The notes under the pieces are model-generated. The model had not been told where the DNA came from, made no database searches, and was given only the letters and a program-made list of their open reading frames with translations. From Staphylothermus marinus F1 (GTDB taxonomy: Archaea; Thermoproteota; Thermoprotei_A; Sulfolobales; Desulfurococcaceae), in contig NC_009033.1 in assembly GCF_000015945.1 (NCBI RefSeq), forward strand, positions 870,001 through 902,000: a stretch of DNA of 32,000 nucleotides. The letters run 5' to 3'. Position 1 is the stretch's first letter. Each line of letters opens with the position of its first letter. Below, one piece after another: positions 8,681-19,148 of this stretch. The position numbers and the translations under genes were made by a program.

Positions 8681-8812
8681 GCGGCCCGACCCGGCCATAG
8701 TGGCCGGGCAACACCCGGTCTCATATCGAACCCGGAAGTTAAGCCGGCCACGTTGGGGTGGGCCGTGAGGTCCGAGAGGCCTCGCAGCCGCCCCAAGCTG
8801 GGATCGGGCCGC
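8681..8812 (+). rRNA. 5S ribosomal RNA
   Basis: GC-rich island. Helix I is GCGGCCCGA...UCGGGCCGC. Conserved 5S strings are present: CCGGUCUCAUAUCGAACCCGGAAGUUAAGCC and CCAAGCUGGGAU. No 16S or 23S rRNA gene lies within this window. Confidence 0.95.
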
Positions 8813-13400: not shown

Positions 13401-13502
13401 AGCCGCCGGCGGGATTTGAACCCGCGACCACCGGCTTTCCCGACTCCGGTAATCAAGTACCCGATACGAGGCCGGCGCTCTACCGAGCTGAGCTACGGCG
13501 GC
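13401..13502 (-). tRNA. tRNA-Thr (anticodon CGU) with a 28-nt intron at the canonical 37/38 position
   Basis: Minus-strand read: GCCGCCG-UA-GCUC-AGCUCGGUA-GAGC-G-CCGGC-CU CGU A-[intron 13464-13437, UCGGGUACUUGAUUACCGGAGUCGGGAA]-A-GCCGG-UGGUC-GCGGG-UUCAAAU-CCCGC-CGGCGGC-U. All stems are Watson-Crick, with U33, A37 and discriminator U. Confidence 0.92.
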
Positions 13503-15646: not shown

Positions 15647-17452
15647 TCAGGGCATATAGTATTGGCCAATAGATTTTTGTTGTCTATCAAGATATGATCC
15701 AGGCTTATTAACTCTAGGTCTACCACTCTGTGGATCTCTTCTGACAGTTATTCCGAGTTCTTTCAGTAATTTATTGAAGCCCTCACGATTACTCATAGGC
15801 TTAGAAGCATATCCCTCAATACCGGGTTTTCCATAGAATACAATAACCTCGTCACTAACATAGTTTTGAAGCATTAAGTCGTGTTCGACGATCATTGCTG
15901 TTTTCCTTTTCTCCTCTATTATCCTTCTTATAACTTTTGCAACAGTAAGTCTCTCCTCTACGTCTAGATAAGCGGATGGCTCGTCTAGTAAGTATAGATC
16001 TGCTTGTTTAGCTAATGCAACTGCCACTGCTAGTTTTTGGAGCTCGCCACCGCTTAGATCAGCTACGTAGCGGTCAAGCATTTTGTTTAGGCCAAGTTTT
16101 CTTATAAGTTCAGCATAGATCCATGATGCAGGATTTAATGTGTTGGGTGAGGCTCTCCTGAGATTAGCAGCTACTGTTTCTTCGGGAAAAATTTTCGGCG
16201 ATAATTCTTGGGGTTTAAAACTAATTGTTTCAACAGATACTAAAACTTCTCCTTCATCAGGTTCGAGTACTCCTCCTAACAATTTGATAAATGTAGTTTT
16301 GCCTATTCCATTGGGACCTATTATTCCCAATACTTCTCCCGGATAAGCTTCACCAGCTTCTATAAATAGTTTGAACCCGCTTGTTCTATATGTTTTAACT
16401 ATATTTGTCCATTTCAAAATAGGGTATTCGCTTTCGGGCTTGACTCTAATGTCTACTTGTATACGGAAATGAATGGGCTCCCTTCTTATCCTCATATTTT
16501 CTGCTGGGAGATAACCTTCTAAGTAATGATTTATACCGGTTCTTACACCATATGGTTTGGAAACTATTCCGTAAACGCCTGGTTCACCATATATTATTGA
16601 AACTTGATCACTTATGTAATCCAGTACCATGAGATCATGTTCTACAACCATGACATATTTCTTAGACACATCTATAAATTCCCGTATTGCCTGAGCCACT
16701 CTTAATCTCTCCTTAACGTCGAGATAACTACATGATTCATCAAAGAAATATGCGTCCGCTTCTTTTACTAGGACTGCTGCTACTAAGAACTTTTGTAGTT
16801 CTCCCCCACTAAGTTCAGATATTTTTCTATCAAGGACATGTTTTATAGCAAGCTTATCTACTACTTCTCTATCAATACCTCTCTCATCAGCTTTCTTTAG
16901 AAGCTCTCCAACTCTCCCTTTTAATCTTCTCTTAACCAATTCGACATATTGGATCTTAACGACAGGTCTTATCTTATTATTTGCTAACTTAGCAAAATAT
17001 GTTTGAAGCTCTGTTCCTCTGAACCTTTTAATTATATTATCCCATTCTAGATCGGCTCCAACCTGTCCTAGGTTTGGTTTAAGAAGGCCTGATAATATCT
17101 TTATACTAGTTGTTTTACCACTACCGTTTCGACCTATAATTCCCATTATATTTCCCAGCCTAGGTATGGGGAGATTATATAGTTTAAACATGTTTTCTCC
17201 ATAACGGTGAACAACATTTTTCTCAAGTTCATCTGGTAAATTAACTATTGATATAGCGTTGAAGGGGCATTTCTTAACACATATTCCACACCCAATACAT
17301 ATATCCTCATATATGACCGCATGTTTACCGTCAGGGGAGAGCTCTATGGCTTTTTTGCGCTTAGTCTTATTTACAGGACAAAACCTTATACATTCTAAGT
17401 TACATTTGTTCGGCTTACAGTATTCACGATCAACAACTGCCACTCTAACCAT
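15647..17452 (-). CDS. abce1: ABCE1 / RNase L inhibitor homologue (ribosome recycling ATPase)
   Basis: N-terminal Fe-S cysteine clusters CKPNKCNLECIRFCP and CIGCGICVKKCP. Two ABC NBDs: GRNGSGKTT / LSGGELQK / FFDESCSYLD and GPNGIGKTT / LSGGELQK / LLDEPSAYLD. The start is taken at ATG 17452 (MVRVAVVD); an upstream TTG at 17467 is possible. Confidence 0.95.
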   Translation of the reverse strand: MVRVAVVDREYCKPNKCNLECIRFCPVNKTKRKKAIELSPDGKHAVIYEDICIGCGICVKKCPFNAISIVNLPDELEKNVVHRYGENMFKLYNLPIPRLGNIMGIIGRNGSGKTTSIKILSGLLKPNLGQVGADLEWDNIIKRFRGTELQTYFAKLANNKIRPVVKIQYVELVKRRLKGRVGELLKKADERGIDREVVDKLAIKHVLDRKISELSGGELQKFLVAAVLVKEADAYFFDESCSYLDVKERLRVAQAIREFIDVSKKYVMVVEHDLMVLDYISDQVSIIYGEPGVYGIVSKPYGVRTGINHYLEGYLPAENMRIRREPIHFRIQVDIRVKPESEYPILKWTNIVKTYRTSGFKLFIEAGEAYPGEVLGIIGPNGIGKTTFIKLLGGVLEPDEGEVLVSVETISFKPQELSPKIFPEETVAANLRRASPNTLNPASWIYAELIRKLGLNKMLDRYVADLSGGELQKLAVAVALAKQADLYLLDEPSAYLDVEERLTVAKVIRRIIEEKRKTAMIVEHDLMLQNYVSDEVIVFYGKPGIEGYASKPMSNREGFNKLLKELGITVRRDPQSGRPRVNKPGSYLDRQQKSIGQYYMP

Positions 17453-17557
17453 TTCATAACTCACCAAAGCATAATTACTTCATTGATTACTTGCTACTTA
17501 TGACACTACATGAATATACATAAATATATTAGTTCTAAACATACATAGGTTATACAG

Positions 17558-17624
17558 ATGATGATTGGTGACGGCTCGGAGAAAATAATCTATTTTCAAT
17601 GAAGAGTAATCGGTGAGGTTCTGA
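17558..17624 (+). ncRNA. Weak candidate C/D box sRNA
   Basis: AUGAUGA (17558-17564), a 12-nt spacer UUGGUGACGGCU, CGGA (degenerate D'), an 18-nt spacer, AUGAAGA (17599-17605, degenerate C'), a 15-nt spacer, then CUGA (17621-17624). Spacer lengths are atypical and there is no good terminal stem. Confidence 0.25.
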
Positions 17625-17626
17625 TC

Positions 17627-17914
17627 TTATTCTTCTCCTCCACCCTCTTCTTCCTGAAAAGTCTCCAAGAATACCTCATAGTATTCTCTGAGAATCTCTC
17701 TTTCCTCAGGAGATAAAGCAAGTTTTTTAGCTTCTGTAGCTTTAGATGTTAATACACGTTTCCCCCTATCAACCTGAAACCTCATCCTATAAAGCTCCGC
17801 TGTCTTTTTATCAGCTTTAATCTCGTATCCACACCTAGCACATTTTAAGTATATGCCATCCTCCTTTTTTACTGGTAACATTGGTCCGCCACATCTTGGA
17901 CAGAATTTAACCAT
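17627..17914 (-). CDS. Zinc-ribbon protein resembling the TFS/RpoM N-terminal ribbon, with a helical middle and an acidic tail
   Basis: MVKFCPRCGGPMLPVKKEDGIYLKCARCGYE (CxxC...CxxC) matches the N-terminal ribbon pattern of TFS/RNAP subunit M. There is no second C-terminal ribbon. It ends QEEEGGGEE. The start is taken at ATG 17914 rather than 17953. Confidence 0.7.
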   Translation of the reverse strand: MVKFCPRCGGPMLPVKKEDGIYLKCARCGYEIKADKKTAELYRMRFQVDRGKRVLTSKATEAKKLALSPEEREILREYYEVFLETFQEEEGGGEE

Positions 17915-18106
17915 TATGTTCACCAGTTTAGAGTTAAATACGCATCTATACATTATTTTGCTAGAGAAAATACTACTTTATCGAGAGTAATAAATTTATC
18001 CTACCTATATATTTAGTAGCGTAGCCATGATCATACTAATTACTTAAATATCTGCATAGAACCAAGAAATATAATAGCATATAAAACTGGTAGCAGGTGA
18101 ACATAG

Positions 18107-18199
18107 ATGATCTGGTTAGAGGAAGAATGGTGGGAGGAAGAAGAGGAAGAAGAATGGGAAGAAGAGGAAGAGTGGTGGGAAGAGGAAGAAGAATGGTAA
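18107..18199 (+). CDS. Candidate micro-ORF encoding a 30-aa Trp/Glu-only peptide, MIWLEEEWWEEEEEEEWEEEEEWWEEEEEW
   Basis: My own translation; the ORF is below the ORF-track size cut-off. ATG is at 18107 and TAA at 18197-18199. Twenty-six consecutive codons are only GAA, GAG or TGG, all in one frame. AGGTGA (18094-18099) lies 7 nt upstream. The TATA-like ATATAAAA (18079-18086) is centred about 24 nt upstream of the ATG. Confidence 0.4.
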   Translation: MIWLEEEWWEEEEEEEWEEEEEWWEEEEEW

Positions 18200-18201
18200 A
18201 A

Positions 18202-18693
18202 CTATAGCATCTCCAAGATTGACTGAATGTTTTTTGCTAGCACTTTAAAGTCATGCTCTTTAAGATCAAAAACTAGATCTGCCGGATCACATTTATTGCT
18301 GATACTTATTTTTTGATTACCAATTATAATCAAATAATAGTTTTTAGAAGAAACAAAACCAGTATTGATTTTATTAATTGTATCTCTTAATTGTCTTTGG
18401 CCAAGTATAAACATTGACAATAATAAACCCTTATTTCGAATTCGTGTATATGTTTTCTCATATACGATATAATGTAGTACTCCTTGTACGAGTTGGTTAA
18501 TTGAATATATAGCGTTAACGGGGATTAACGCATAAACGTTTTTGTCATCTAGTTTGAGATTATCTAGTTCTTCATCAATGTTTTCTCTACTTTTCTTACA
18601 GTAGAAAATATAGAAGTAAATAGTTTTTCCAAGGTAGTTAATCATATAGAATCCTTTTTCAATAGTTTCTAAATTAAATATTTTATTGTCCAA
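18202..18693 (-). CDS. cgi121: Cgi121-like KEOPS complex subunit
   Basis: 163 aa. LLLSMFILGQRQLRDTINKIN resembles the Cgi121 signature I recall from M. jannaschii (MEILVRASGQRQIHEAIKIIG), and YSINQLVQGVLHYI resembles HVLHAINQA. This is a memory-based alignment only. Confidence 0.55.
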   Translation of the reverse strand: MDNKIFNLETIEKGFYMINYLGKTIYFYIFYCKKSRENIDEELDNLKLDDKNVYALIPVNAIYSINQLVQGVLHYIVYEKTYTRIRNKGLLLSMFILGQRQLRDTINKINTGFVSSKNYYLIIIGNQKISISNKCDPADLVFDLKEHDFKVLAKNIQSILEML

Positions 18694-18757: not shown

Positions 18758-18964
18758 CTAGGCTTGTATTTGTCTCTTTAATTTTATGCCTACTAGATGC
18801 GTTATATAGCCTGCAATCTGGTTTCTAAGTTTTTTGGATTTGGTTTCTATTAGTTTTGACACTACCTTTTTATTATGTTCGAAATCCCTTGTGAATAGAT
18901 TGGGGTACTTTTCTAATAGTTCCCTAGCTGTTCTCTTAACAATTTTTGTTCTTACTTTTCCCAT
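18758..18964 (-). CDS. rps17e: 30S ribosomal protein S17e
   Basis: MGKVRTKIVKRTARELLEKYPNLFTRDFEHNKKVV is the S17e N-terminal signature; 68 aa. The ORF-track N-terminal extension to 19240 is rejected. Confidence 0.92.
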   Translation of the reverse strand: MGKVRTKIVKRTARELLEKYPNLFTRDFEHNKKVVSKLIETKSKKLRNQIAGYITHLVGIKLKRQIQA

Positions 18965-19148
18965 CCAGTACACCTCACTACTATAAACTCTATGGCAACT
19001 GTATTTCAAACCTATTAATGATATATGTGGGGTTTTTAACTTATCTATTAACCGATCATGGATAAATTTATATAGAAGTGGTTTTATGAGTAAACAATGA
19101 CAAATTATACAGTATAGAACACTAGGTTCTAAATATAAGGTGATGGTT

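What the first reader, a model, noticed from the sequence alone, without database searches (positions are those of the whole stretch)
18079..18199. Micro-ORF encoding a 30-residue peptide made almost entirely of Trp and Glu
After M-I-W-L, 26 consecutive codons are only GAA/GAG (Glu) or TGG (Trp), giving MIWLEEEWWEEEEEEEWEEEEEWWEEEEEW: 8 Trp, 20 Glu, net charge about -20. Every TGG stays in the same frame across ~80 nt, and the frame closes with TAA. The ORF has both an SD-like AGGTGA 7 nt upstream and a TATA-like ATATAAAA centred about 24 nt upstream of the ATG, the same spacing as the csx1-like promoter in this window. This looks like an expressed unit rather than random purine-rich DNA. At the DNA level the plus strand is a C-free G/A/T tract, so a polypurine/triplex-prone or slippage-prone repeat is the competing explanation. 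Its stop codon lies 2 nt from the stop codon of the convergent Cgi121-like gene. Either transcript running on would therefore be antisense to the other, and the minus-strand copy is a CU-rich tract in the cgi121 3' region. I know of no described family like this. Possible roles (all speculative) are a polyanionic nucleic-acid mimic, a Trp- or Glu-tRNA-sensing translated element, or an antisense regulator of cgi121. Having no Lys or Arg, it would be invisible to tryptic proteomics. At under 60 codons it falls below the apparent ~60-codon floor of the supplied ORF track.
Basis: partly seen in the sequence, partly recalled or inferred. Interest (0 to 1): 0.75.

Follow-up and report, generated by a model that had tools for sequence, protein, structure and literature searches.

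The report
Conserved Glu/Trp microprotein gene beside ABCE1
The 30-codon Glu/Trp reading frame appears to be a real, unannotated gene for a tiny, extremely acidic peptide ending in EEEEW; it is conserved across many heat-loving and sediment archaea, almost always next to the ribosome-recycling ATPase ABCE1, and belongs to no described protein family.

Summary
Window 18107-18199 (+) in Staphylothermus marinus F1 encodes MIWLEEEWWEEEEEEEWEEEEEWWEEEEEW (7 Trp, not 8; 20 Glu). It is not a chance purine tract.

- **Spread:** a DNA-pattern scan found the same kind of ORF in at least 118 archaeal species, nearly all Thermoproteota: Desulfurococcales, Sulfolobales, Bathyarchaeia, Brockarchaeota, Methanomethylicota.
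- **Gene signals:** the ORFs are 19-55 codons long, usually with an SD-like motif (71%), an ATG start (86%) and an oligo-T run after the stop (77%).
- **Linkage:** in 74 loci the next gene on the same strand is ABCE1 (median gap 136 nt). In an independent sample of 80 ABCE1 loci, 31 carry such an ORF just upstream.
- **Conserved end:** in sequences not selected by the pattern, the C-terminus is E-E-E-E-W (W in 28 of 32, F in 3).
- **Coding constraint:** variation falls mainly on third codon positions, and Asp-rich variants keep the charge while breaking the purine tract.
- **This clade:** in the Staphylothermus clade only the micro-ORF is flipped. The abutment to cgi121 is therefore incidental.
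- **Novelty:** no Pfam, NCBIfam, PDB or literature match.

Best reading: a trans-acting polyanionic microprotein tied to ABCE1 and ribosome recycling. This mechanism is inferred, by analogy with the acidic-Trp motif of eIF3j and the aP1 stalk tail. A cis-acting leader peptide is the main rival.

The parts
18107..18199 (+). Micro-ORF (30 codons) encoding MIWLEEEWWEEEEEEEWEEEEEWWEEEEEW; member of a conserved Glu/Trp microprotein family ending in EEEEW
   Evidence: Orthologues kept in frame in S. hellenicus, L007 and L008. Family found in at least 118 archaeal species.
18095..18100 (+). Shine-Dalgarno-like AGGTGA, 6 nt before the ATG
   Evidence: An SD-like tetramer lies at -16..-4 in 84 of 118 family members, against 13% background. 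GGAGGTGA is conserved in Bathyarchaeia.
18069..18086 (+). A/T-rich TATA-like boxes (TATAATA 18070-76; ATATAAAA 18079-86): candidate archaeal promoter of the micro-ORF, lying in the 153-nt divergent region shared with the Zn-ribbon/ABCE1 genes
   Evidence: TATA-like hexamers lie at -48..-18 in 38 of 118 members, against 8% background. Function is inferred; there are no TSS data.
18230..18235 (+). T6 run 31 nt after the stop: archaeal-type oligo-T terminator candidate, lying inside the 3' end of the convergent cgi121 gene
   Evidence: Invariant in S. marinus, S. hellenicus and L008, and present in L007. T5+ occurs within 60 nt of the stop in 91 of 118 members, against 9% background.
18202..18693 (-). 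Smar_0905, a divergent Cgi121 (KEOPS subunit), convergent with the micro-ORF in this clade only
   Evidence: Identified as Smar_0905. No Pfam hit. hhalign against the Cgi121 cluster gives E 1.8e-4, probability 48%. AF2 model has pLDDT 79 and its top 14 PDB fold matches are all Cgi121/TPRKB. Positional orthology.
17627..17953 (-). Zn-ribbon protein: TFS/Rpb9 N-terminal ribbon only, with an acidic tail. It is divergent from the micro-ORF here. In several lineages it lies between the micro-ORF and ABCE1.
   Evidence: Pfam PF02150. TIGR01384 scores below its cut-off. Sources name it 'RNA polymerase subunit M'. Synteny. It starts 4-10 nt after the micro-ORF stop in L011 and L016.
15647..17467 (-). 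ABCE1/RLI ribosome-recycling ATPase (likely start at 17452); the gene to which the micro-ORF is linked across Thermoproteota
   Evidence: Pfam Fer4_RLI + 2x ABC_tran on the same gene in L001. ABCE1 lies immediately downstream on the same strand in 74 loci. 31 of 80 ABCE1-anchored loci carry the micro-ORF upstream.
18758..18967 (-). Ribosomal protein S17e; conserved upstream member of the S17e-Cgi121-microORF-(Zn-ribbon)-ABCE1 neighbourhood
   Evidence: Pfam PF00833, E 1.9e-20. Synteny.

Best explanation
The ORF is a genuine, translated, free-standing microprotein gene. It belongs to a previously undescribed family that is widespread in Thermoproteota (TACK archaea).

**What is shown**
- The product is a 19-55-residue polyanion: about 55-66% Glu, plus Asp, with net charge about -17 to -23.
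- Trp residues stud it every 4-8 positions, and it ends in a conserved E-E-E-E-W carboxy terminus.
- The gene has its own SD/start and usually its own oligo-T stop signal.
- It is kept beside ABCE1, the Fe-S ABC ATPase that splits ribosomes.

**What is inferred**
- The peptide probably acts in trans as a disordered acidic ligand.
- Its Trp side chains, especially the C-terminal Trp with its free carboxylate, would dock into hydrophobic pockets ringed by basic residues.
- The target would be ABCE1 or an ABCE1-associated ribosomal surface, modulating ABCE1 recruitment or ATPase activity.
- This would resemble two known ABCE1 ligands that bind one patch on NBD1: the N-terminus of eIF3j/Hcr1, which carries an acidic, Trp-centred motif, and the acidic/hydrophobic C-terminal tail of stalk protein aP1.

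**In S. marinus**
- Only the micro-ORF has been inverted. It is now transcribed divergently from the Zn-ribbon/ABCE1 pair and ends against cgi121.
- Its survival in that orientation argues that the product matters, not its position on the ABCE1 mRNA.
For: **Coding**
- The ORF is kept from ATG to stop in S. hellenicus. Five substitutions all fall at third positions, four of them synonymous, and there is one 3-nt indel. It is also kept in L008, whose neighbouring protein is 39% identical and whose upstream DNA does not align.
- At least 118 species carry it.
- 84 of 118 have an SD-like motif (13% background), 102 of 118 start with ATG, and 91 of 118 have T5+ after the stop (9% background).
- Variable columns fall 32/9/6 on codon positions 3/2/1 in the sample not selected by pattern, and 158/9/16 in the pattern set.
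- Asp-rich variants keep charge but break the purine tract.
- The alternative same-strand frames are interrupted in many members (M. sedula).
- The C-terminal profile in 32 unselected peptides is W 28 / F 3 at -1, and E in 27-29 at each of -2 to -5.

**Linkage to ABCE1**
- 74 pattern-found loci have ABCE1 next downstream on the same strand, median gap 136 nt.
- 31 of 80 ABCE1-anchored metagenome loci have the ORF 43-381 nt upstream. No acidic-Trp ORF was found anywhere else in those loci.
- It is present in the cultured S. acidocaldarius, M. sedula and H. butylicus.

**Trans rather than cis**
- In 20 loci plus this window the ORF is inverted yet intact.
- A Bathyarchaeia subfamily is unlinked from ABCE1.
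- Where both are recognisable, the T-run precedes a separate ABCE1 TATA box in 25 of 26 loci (sequences).

**Analogy**
- The eIF3j acidic motif is centred on a Trp held in a hydrophobic pocket, with basic residues placing the acidic peptide (PMC2824034).
- The eIF3j N-terminal sequence was verified in PDB 6YBW/6ZVJ.
- The eIF3j N-terminus sits on ABCE1 where the aP1 tail binds (PMC7780240; PMC6125642).
Against: - There is no direct evidence of transcription, translation or a stable peptide in any organism.
- A run of acidic residues beginning at codon 3-5 is exactly what triggers intrinsic ribosome destabilisation in bacteria and eukaryotes (PMC12673854). Full-length product could therefore be scarce.
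- The layout promoter-SD-short ORF-oligo-T-ABCE1 also fits an attenuator. About half of the same-strand loci lack a recognisable separate ABCE1 TATA box.
- Some Thermoproteota ABCE1 loci lack the ORF: S. shibatae, I. islandicus and several Bathyarchaeia.
- There is no sequence homology to eIF3j, aP1, DSS1 or Lto1. Binding to ABCE1 is untested.
- The very low complexity and variable length mean that any interaction must be fuzzy.
Confidence: 0.5

Rival explanations
1. Cis-acting regulatory leader ORF. The act of translating a hard-to-translate sequence matters, not the peptide. The sequence is an N-terminal poly-acidic run prone to intrinsic ribosome destabilisation, and it has many rare Trp codons. 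Ribosome behaviour on it would set whether RNA polymerase stops at the oligo-T just downstream or reads into ABCE1. This would couple ABCE1 supply to ribosome stalling or splitting, as stall-sensing leader peptides do upstream of bacterial ABC-F ribosome-rescue genes and as MgtL does.
For: - The ORF lies immediately upstream on the same strand in 74 loci, and T5+ occurs in 53 of 60 unique intergenic regions.
- Composition, rather than exact sequence, is conserved.
- IRD is defined by at least 7 D/E in a 10-residue window within the first 40 residues (PMC12673854). Every family member exceeds this.
- About half of the same-strand loci show no obvious separate ABCE1 TATA box.
Against: - The ORF is conserved intact when inverted and transcribed away from ABCE1: this window plus 20 loci.
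- It is also conserved when unlinked from ABCE1.
- The T-run precedes a distinct ABCE1 TATA box in 25 of 26 loci where both are seen. That TATA box is strongly conserved in Bathyarchaeia.
- The strict C-terminal EEEEW and the regular Trp residues are not needed for an IRD sensor.
- IRD and leader-peptide attenuation have not been shown in archaea (own knowledge).
Confidence: 0.2
2. Fe-S maturation helper for ABCE1. The peptide's acidic C-terminal Trp would act like the C-terminal Trp of Lto1, or like the [LIM]-[DES]-[WF] targeting tripeptide of eukaryotic CIA clients. It would recruit a cluster-delivery factor to apo-ABCE1, or bind iron.
For: - In yeast, Rli1/ABCE1 needs the dedicated Yae1-Lto1 adaptor. 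Lto1's conserved C-terminal Trp (Phe in some species) is essential for it (PMC4523923).
- The TCR motif is described in PMC10245660.
- This family has C-terminal W in 28 of 32 and F in 3 of 32, with an acidic residue at -2, and it is linked to ABCE1.
Against: - Position -3 is Glu in 28 of 32, not Leu/Ile/Met.
- There is no deca-GX3 motif and no Pfam hit.
- As far as I know, archaea lack the Cia1 and Met18 components of the CIA targeting complex.
- No Cys or His residues are present for metal handling.
Confidence: 0.1
3. Non-coding element. Options are a slippage-prone polypurine/polypyrimidine (triplex-prone) tract, a CU-rich 3' region or terminator of cgi121, an antisense regulator of cgi121, or a purine-rich RNA carrying SD-like repeats. 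On this view the open frame is a by-product.
For: - The tract is C-free with GC skew +0.91, and TRF reports imperfect repeats.
- The number of Glu codons between Trp codons varies among species, as slippage would produce.
- All six frames are nearly open across the tract.
Against: - Every indel among about 150 sequences preserves the frame.
- T occurs only in TGG. Pyrimidines otherwise appear at third positions, as GAT/GAC.
- Asp-rich members are not polypurine at all.
- A conserved ATG and SD lie upstream, and a stop falls directly after the last Trp.
- The orientation relative to cgi121 differs between clades.
Confidence: 0.05
4. The real gene is in another frame or on the other strand. Candidates are the Arg/Gly-rich -1 frame (18097-18207, GTG start), the Lys-rich frame, or a Phe/Leu/Pro-rich peptide on the minus strand.
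For: - The RG frame is open in S. marinus (36 aa), and a gene finder called it in L006.
- The Lys-rich frame has an ATG in S. acidocaldarius.
- Minus-strand frames are open in most members.
Against: - The RG frame has TGA in L008, and both alternative frames are stopped in M. sedula.
- Frames +1 and +2 are uninterrupted in only 14 and 2 of 30 unselected members.
- The most variable positions would be codon position 1 of the minus-strand frame.
- W-to-F and E-to-D changes would become radical changes in that frame.
- No start, SD or stop is conserved for these frames.
Confidence: 0.02

Closest known systems
N-terminal acidic motif (NTA) of eIF3j/Hcr1, the eukaryotic accessory partner of ABCE1
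   Same: - Both have Trp residues embedded in Asp/Glu clusters. Human eIF3j has DSW-DAD, DRW-EGEDEDED and DNW-DDDDDE, verified in PDB 6YBW/6ZVJ.
- The eIF3j Trp fills a hydrophobic pocket, while the acidic residues pair with lysines (PMC2824034).
- The eIF3j N-terminus contacts ABCE1 near NBD1 (PMC7780240).
- Both are associated with ABCE1: here through gene neighbourhood.
   Different: - There is no detectable homology.
- eIF3j is a 258-residue protein with a helical dimerisation region and a KERR motif. The archaeal product is only the acidic-Trp part.
- The archaeal peptide uses Glu rather than Asp, and has a conserved C-terminal EEEEW that eIF3j lacks.
- Binding is untested.
C-terminal tail of the archaeal ribosomal stalk protein aP1
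   Same: Both are acidic stretches ending in hydrophobic or aromatic residues near a free C-terminus. The aP1 tail binds NBD1 of archaeal ABCE1 and is crucial for activating its ATPase on the ribosome (PMC6125642). eIF3j occupies the same patch.
   Different: - The aP1 tail is part of a ribosomal protein and, from my own knowledge, ends in Leu/Phe/Gly, with no Trp.
- The micro-ORF product is free-standing and would more likely compete with the tail or mimic it.
Lto1 C-terminal Trp and the CIA targeting tripeptide [LIM]-[DES]-[WF]-COO-
   Same: Both have a C-terminal Trp (Phe in some) preceded by an acidic residue, and both have a dedicated link to ABCE1/Rli1 (PMC4523923; PMC10245660).
   Different: Position -3 is Glu, not a hydrophobic residue. 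There is no deca-GX3 domain. The receptor complex is not known in archaea.
DSS1/Sem1
   Same: Both are small, intrinsically disordered, highly acidic proteins with conserved Trp residues. SEM1 was the only other PDB chain that resembled the eIF3j acidic-Trp stretch.
   Different: There is no Pfam DSS1 hit. DSS1 is about 70 residues long (own knowledge). The partners are different.
Regulatory leader peptides (MgtL-type IRD sensors; leaders of ABC-F resistance genes; trpL)
   Same: All are very short ORFs with biased codon content, followed by a terminator, directly upstream of the regulated gene. N-terminal acidic runs destabilise ribosomes.
   Different: The micro-ORF persists when inverted or unlinked. 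ABCE1 usually has its own promoter after the T-run. The conserved C-terminal motif points to a product.

Membership tests
eIF3j/Hcr1 | Sequence homology to eIF3j (Pfam eIF3_subunit family) | tested here: not met
   No Pfam hit at E<=10 for 10 family members. BLASTP of a member against the eIF3j N-terminus gives E=33.
eIF3j/Hcr1 | Trp centred in an acidic cluster (NTA motif) | tested here: met
   There are 3-8 such Trp residues per peptide. The eIF3j motif was verified.
eIF3j/Hcr1 | Physical binding to ABCE1 and the small ribosomal subunit | not testable with these tools
   Only gene neighbourhood is available. I did not submit a fused ABCE1-peptide sequence, because structure prediction only accepts window or search-returned sequences.
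CIA targeting-complex recognition tripeptide / Lto1 | [WF] at the C-terminus | tested here: met
   W in 28 of 32 and F in 3 of 32 peptides not selected by pattern.
CIA targeting-complex recognition tripeptide / Lto1 | [LIM] at position -3 and [DES] at -2 | tested here: not met
   Position -2 is E in 29, S in 2 and D in 1, which fits. Position -3 is E in 28, D in 3 and G in 1, never L, I or M.
CIA targeting-complex recognition tripeptide / Lto1 | deca-GX3 motif (Yae1/Lto1) | tested here: not met
   The peptides contain almost no Gly and give no Pfam hit.
DSS1/SEM1 | Match to the DSS1_SEM1 Pfam family | tested here: not met
   No Pfam hit.
Leader-peptide attenuator of the downstream gene | Short ORF on the same strand, directly upstream of the regulated gene, with a terminator between them | tested here: inconclusive
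   Met in 74 loci, with T5+ in 53 of 60 unique intergenic regions. Not met in this window or in 20 other loci, where the ORF is inverted.
Leader-peptide attenuator of the downstream gene | The regulated gene has no promoter of its own downstream of the terminator | tested here: not met
   A TATA-like box lies 15-60 nt before the ABCE1 start in 27 of 60 loci, and it follows the T-run in 25 of 26. It is conserved as catatttataa in Bathyarchaeia. The remaining loci are ambiguous.
Non-coding simple repeat / polypurine tract | No reading-frame constraint on indels and substitutions | tested here: not met
   All indels are in frame. Third-position bias is 32/9/6 and 158/9/16. Asp-rich, non-purine variants exist.
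Cgi121 (for the neighbour Smar_0905) | Pfam CGI-121 (PF08617) match | tested here: not met
   There is no hit for Smar_0905 itself. The positional counterpart in other lineages hits at E 1.6e-18.
Cgi121 (for the neighbour Smar_0905) | Cgi121 fold | tested here: met
   The AF2 model has pLDDT 79 and pTM 0.79. The top 14 Foldseek PDB matches are all Cgi121/TPRKB, with probability 0.94-1.00 and TM 0.42-0.54. hhalign gives E 1.8e-4.

The most novel reading that the evidence does not exclude
TACK archaea encode a free-standing peptide regulator of ribosome recycling. The EEEEW-ended Glu/Trp microprotein would bind the same NBD1 patch of ABCE1 that the aP1 stalk tail uses and, in eukaryotes, the acidic-Trp N-terminus of eIF3j. 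It would tune ABCE1 ATPase activity and its release from the 30S subunit. On this reading it is an archaeal functional counterpart, and conceivably an evolutionary forerunner, of the eIF3j acidic motif.
Probability: 0.25. Interest if true: 0.9.

Novelty: categorically new. Interest (0 to 1): 0.82.

Why it matters
**A missed gene next to an essential factor.** ABCE1 is one of the most conserved and essential translation factors in archaea and eukaryotes. No archaeal accessory factor comparable to eIF3j or Yae1-Lto1 is known. This gene is conserved across a phylum, sits beside ABCE1, is about 80% Glu plus Trp, and is missed by annotation. Most members fall under the 30-codon floor of gene finders, and they have no Lys or Arg for tryptic proteomics.

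**It is testable now.** The ORF exists in the genetically tractable S. acidocaldarius and in M. sedula. Archaeal ABCE1 splitting assays are established.

**It poses a translation puzzle.** It is unclear how a ribosome gets through about 20 acidic residues starting at codon 3-5, which is the strongest known trigger of intrinsic ribosome destabilisation.

**It is a lesson for annotation.** Conserved low-complexity microproteins can be filtered out by every standard homology tool, yet recovered with a degenerate DNA pattern.

Tried and rejected
**Searches that found nothing**
- Protein homology: Pfam and NCBIfam at E<=10.
- Full HMMER scan of 1.84 billion representatives: 0 hits.
- PDB sequence search: 0 hits.
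- Exact look-up of 10 peptides in the 15-billion-protein collection: none present.
- Rfam: nothing on the tract.
- Literature: string searches for WEEEEW and similar, and keyword searches, found no description.
- Pattern control: the DNA pattern has 0 hits in IMG/VR viral contigs. The one bacterial hit (L040) is not in frame.

- The sigma-70 promoter and hairpin-terminator scan is irrelevant to archaea and found nothing at the locus.
- I did not attempt a structure prediction of a fused ABCE1-peptide, because structure prediction only accepts window or search-returned sequences.

**Readings considered and rejected**
- Antisense regulator of cgi121: the arrangement is clade-specific.
- RG-rich or K-rich alternative frames and minus-strand coding.
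- N- or C-terminal extension of a neighbouring gene: the upstream neighbours differ between lineages (Cgi121, asparaginase, others), and a stop, a T-run and a promoter separate the ORF from ABCE1.
- Homology to eIF3j.

**Left aside**
- The Thermococcus, Woesearchaeota and Nanopusillus acidic-Trp ORFs have other contexts and may be unrelated.
Full report
**Observation.** The window is from Staphylothermus marinus F1. The 163-aa minus-strand ORF at 18202-18693 is 100% identical to Smar_0905. The reported ORF is real: 18107-18199 (+), ATG to TAA, MIWLEEEWWEEEEEEEWEEEEEWWEEEEEW.
- AGGTGA lies 6 nt before the ATG.
- ATATAAAA lies at 18079-18086.
- The TAA is 2 nt from the stop of the convergent gene.
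- The tract is C-free, with GC skew +0.91, and TRF scores it as an imperfect 9/18/21-nt repeat.
- A W-E3...W-E2 DNA pattern is found only here in the window (2 matches against 0.00 in shuffles).

**Conservation by synteny.** I fetched the contigs that encode relatives of Smar_0905.
- S. hellenicus has the same ORF in the same place: MIWFEEEWWEEEEEEEWEEEEEEWWEEEEEW. Compared with S. marinus there are five substitutions, all at third codon positions (four GAA/GAG, one Leu to Phe), and one 3-nt insertion.
- A metagenomic relative whose Smar_0905 homologue is 60% identical ends ...EWWEEEEEW-stop.
- One at only 39% identity has MLWFEEEWEEEWEEEEWEEEEWEEEEW. Its upstream DNA cannot be aligned apart from a GG(T)G before the ATG, and a T6 run about 30 nt after the stop is conserved.
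- In that sequence the Arg/Gly-rich -1 frame, which a gene finder had called in one assembly, is closed by TGA.

**A large family.** I scanned one genome per GTDB species for TGGGARGARGAR-N(0-12)-TGGGARGARGAR-N(0-12)-TGGTAR.
- By record title, 119 hits are archaeal: 44 Bathyarchaeia, 44 Desulfurococcales in the broad sense (Thermogladius, Desulfurococcus, Ignisphaera, Pyrodictium, Fervidicoccaceae), 3 Sulfolobales, 13 unassigned Thermoprotei/Thermoproteota, plus Thermofilaceae, Methanomethylicota and Brockarchaeota, and a few DPANN and Thermococcus.
- The single bacterial hit is out of frame. The same pattern has no hit in 2.9 million viral contigs.
- In almost every locus the match is the 3' end of a tiny free-standing ORF of the form M-x(1-4)-(F/L)-EEEW...EEEEW-stop. 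There are 96 distinct peptides, median 28 aa, 66% Glu and 17% Trp.

**Linkage to ABCE1.** The pattern says nothing about neighbouring genes.
- ABCE1/RLI is nevertheless the next gene downstream on the same strand in 74 loci, with a median gap of 136 nt.
- Genuine Cgi121 (PF08617, E 1.6e-18) lies upstream on the same strand in 41 loci, with S17e beyond it. In Bathyarchaeia an asparaginase is the upstream neighbour.
- In several Thermoprotei lineages the Rpb9/TFS-like Zn-ribbon gene sits between the micro-ORF and ABCE1, and it starts 4-10 nt after the micro-ORF stop.
- The ancestral order is therefore S17e - Cgi121 - micro-ORF - (Zn-ribbon) - ABCE1, all on one strand.
- In the Staphylothermus/Thermogladius/Desulfurococcus clade (20 loci plus this window) only the micro-ORF is flipped.

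**Independent, unbiased test.** I fetched 80 ABCE1 loci from metagenomes using an ABCE1 alignment. I then searched all six frames for acidic, Trp-containing ORFs.
- 31 loci have one 43-381 nt upstream of ABCE1 on the same strand. One more has it on the opposite strand 644 nt upstream, as in Staphylothermus.
- No such ORF occurs anywhere else in these loci.
- All positives have ABCE1 at least 56% identical to labelled Thermoproteota or Bathyarchaeia. None of the loci with more distant ABCE1 has one.
- Some Bathyarchaeia ABCE1 loci also lack it.
- Cultured species that carry it upstream of ABCE1: Sulfolobus acidocaldarius (VFEEDWEEEFEEFEEEEDWEEEEDWEEEW, 50 nt upstream), Metallosphaera sedula (MEEEWEDIEEEEWEDIEEEEDWEEDEW) and Hyperthermus butylicus (36 aa, 148 nt upstream).
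- Saccharolobus shibatae and Ignicoccus islandicus lack it at that position.

**Coding evidence.**
- In 32 distinct peptides not selected by the pattern, the C-terminus is W in 28, F in 3 and E in 1. Positions -2 to -5 are Glu in 27-29 each, which gives a conserved EEEEW-COOH.
- Variable alignment columns fall 32/9/6 on codon positions 3/2/1 in the unselected groups. In the pattern set the split is 158/9/16, but that figure is partly forced by the pattern.
- Asp-rich members such as LSEDENWDDGEEDDWTDDEWGEDDGWGEDEEW keep charge and Trp but are not polypurine. Selection therefore acts on the peptide, not on the DNA or RNA tract.
- An SD-like tetramer lies at -16..-4 in 84 of 118 loci (13% background). 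Bathyarchaeia conserve GGAGGTGA.
- The start codon is ATG in 102 of 118.
- T5+ follows within 60 nt of the stop in 91 of 118 loci (9% background).
- The alternative same-strand frames are interrupted in many members. In the unselected set only 14 and 2 of 30 are open. Both are stopped in M. sedula.
- Minus-strand frames are open, but they lack conserved starts and stops, and the variable sites would fall on their first codon position.

**Cis or trans.** The layout SD - short ORF - oligo-T - ABCE1 looks like an attenuator. N-terminal acidic clusters are the defining trigger of intrinsic ribosome destabilisation (PMC12673854). Three findings favour a trans-acting product.
- The ORF survives inversion (this window and 20 loci). 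It also survives loss of linkage: a second Bathyarchaeia subfamily, MS(K/R)(K/R)KTPPK-E(8-10)...EEEEEEW, sits near TFB-like genes.
- Where both signals are recognisable, the T-run comes before a separate TATA box placed 15-60 nt ahead of the ABCE1 start in 25 of 26 loci. In Bathyarchaeia that box (catatttataa) is strongly conserved.
- The strict EEEEW end and the regular Trp spacing are features of a ligand, not of a stall sequence.

The cis model stays a live rival, because about half of the same-strand loci show no obvious ABCE1 promoter.

**Mechanism (inferred).** Three published facts suggest how an acidic-Trp peptide could act on ABCE1.
- eIF3j/Hcr1 is a eukaryotic ABCE1 partner. It has an N-terminal acidic motif centred on a conserved Trp that inserts into a hydrophobic pocket while the acidic residues pair with lysines (PMC2824034). 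I verified the human sequence ...DRWEGEDEDEDVKDNWDDDDDE... and SDSWDAD in PDB 6YBW/6ZMW/6ZVJ.
- In native complexes the eIF3j N-terminus sits on ABCE1 near NBD1. This is similar to where the C-terminal 18-mer of archaeal stalk protein aP1 binds, which the authors call a multivalent interaction patch (PMC7780240).
- The aP1 tail binding is needed to activate archaeal ABCE1 ATPase on the ribosome (PMC6125642).

The micro-ORF product could be a third, free ligand of that patch. A second analogy is Lto1, the dedicated Fe-S maturation adaptor of Rli1/ABCE1, whose C-terminal Trp (Phe in some species) is essential (PMC4523923). However, position -3 here is Glu rather than Leu/Ile/Met, and there is no deca-GX3 motif. 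None of these is homology: Pfam, NCBIfam, HMMER, PDB and BLAST all give nothing.

**Neighbour identity.** Smar_0905 has no Pfam hit. Its family aligns to the Cgi121 cluster at hhalign E 1.8e-4. An AF2 model (pLDDT 79) has Cgi121/TPRKB as its top 14 PDB fold matches. The Zn-ribbon protein matches only the N-terminal ribbon of TFS/Rpb9, and sources name it 'RNA polymerase subunit M'.

**Novelty and limits.**
- The peptides are absent from the protein collections, although one gene finder called the 30-codon ORFs in Logan assemblies of S. marinus and of S. acidocaldarius.
- No paper in the searchable library mentions such sequences.
- Everything here is comparative. There is no transcript, footprint or peptide evidence, and no binding data.
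- The genome scan was limited by rows, so prevalence within Thermoproteota is unknown.
- The pattern forced a W-stop in the first set. I corrected for this with the ABCE1-anchored set.

Noticed in passing
window 17555-17628 (+); also L005, L017, L024, L025, L029, L032, L056, L063, L076, L091, L119, L121, L126, L130: A conserved C/D-box-sRNA-like element lies antisense in the spacer before ABCE1. It has a C box ATGATGA, an invariant 11-nt guide G(T/A)(T/G)GGTGACGGC, a C'-like ATGAAGA and a D box CTGA. In S. marinus it abuts the stop of the Zn-ribbon gene. No Rfam family matches at gathering threshold, and the target was not identified.
   Followed up: partly
window 17627-17953 (-): The Zn-ribbon protein has only the N-terminal ribbon of TFS/Rpb9 (TIGR01384 31.9 bits, below the 64.75 cut-off) plus an acidic tail. 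Sources call it 'RNA polymerase subunit M'. In several Thermoprotei lineages it is wedged between the micro-ORF and ABCE1 and starts 4-10 nt after the micro-ORF stop, which suggests an operon.
   Followed up: partly
window 18097-18207 (+); L006 986-1102: An overlapping Arg/Gly-rich ORF lies in the -1 frame (GTG start, 36 aa). A gene finder called this frame instead of the Glu/Trp frame in one S. hellenicus-like assembly. It is interrupted in more distant relatives.
   Followed up: yes
L070, L077, L092, L099, L105, L106, L113, L116, L122: A second Bathyarchaeia subfamily has a basic N-terminus: MS(K/R)(K/R)KTPPK, then 8-10 Glu, WEDWG...EEEEEEW. It is not next to ABCE1. It lies downstream of a TFB-like gene and a gene I read, from its sequence alone, as a helix-hairpin-helix glycosylase.
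   Followed up: partly
L068 6342-6494 (Thermococcus MAG); L114 (Woesearchaeota); L128 (Nanopusillus): Acidic Trp-containing small ORFs ending in W occur outside Thermoproteota. They are longer and more mixed in sequence, and lie in unrelated contexts (MoeA and SerRS in the Thermococcus locus). They may be unrelated or distant cousins.
   Followed up: partly
window 13401-13502 (-): The tRNA hit spans 102 nt for a 71-position model, so it is probably an intron-containing tRNA gene.
   Followed up: no
window 8687-8806 (+): A stand-alone 5S rRNA gene (Rfam, 64 bits).
   Followed up: no
L209 5802-6056, L210 5741-5992, L211 5828-6073: In Sulfolobales the order is micro-ORF - ABCE1 - FBP aldolase/phosphatase - S17e - a small Urm1/ThiS-like protein. 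S17e and ABCE1 stay neighbours, although the arrangement differs from that in Desulfurococcales.
   Followed up: no
L210 1-1709 (Saccharolobus shibatae): Virus-like genes (WHD_F93, VirArc_Nuclease) lie upstream of ABCE1 where the micro-ORF would be expected. An integrated element may have displaced it.
   Followed up: no
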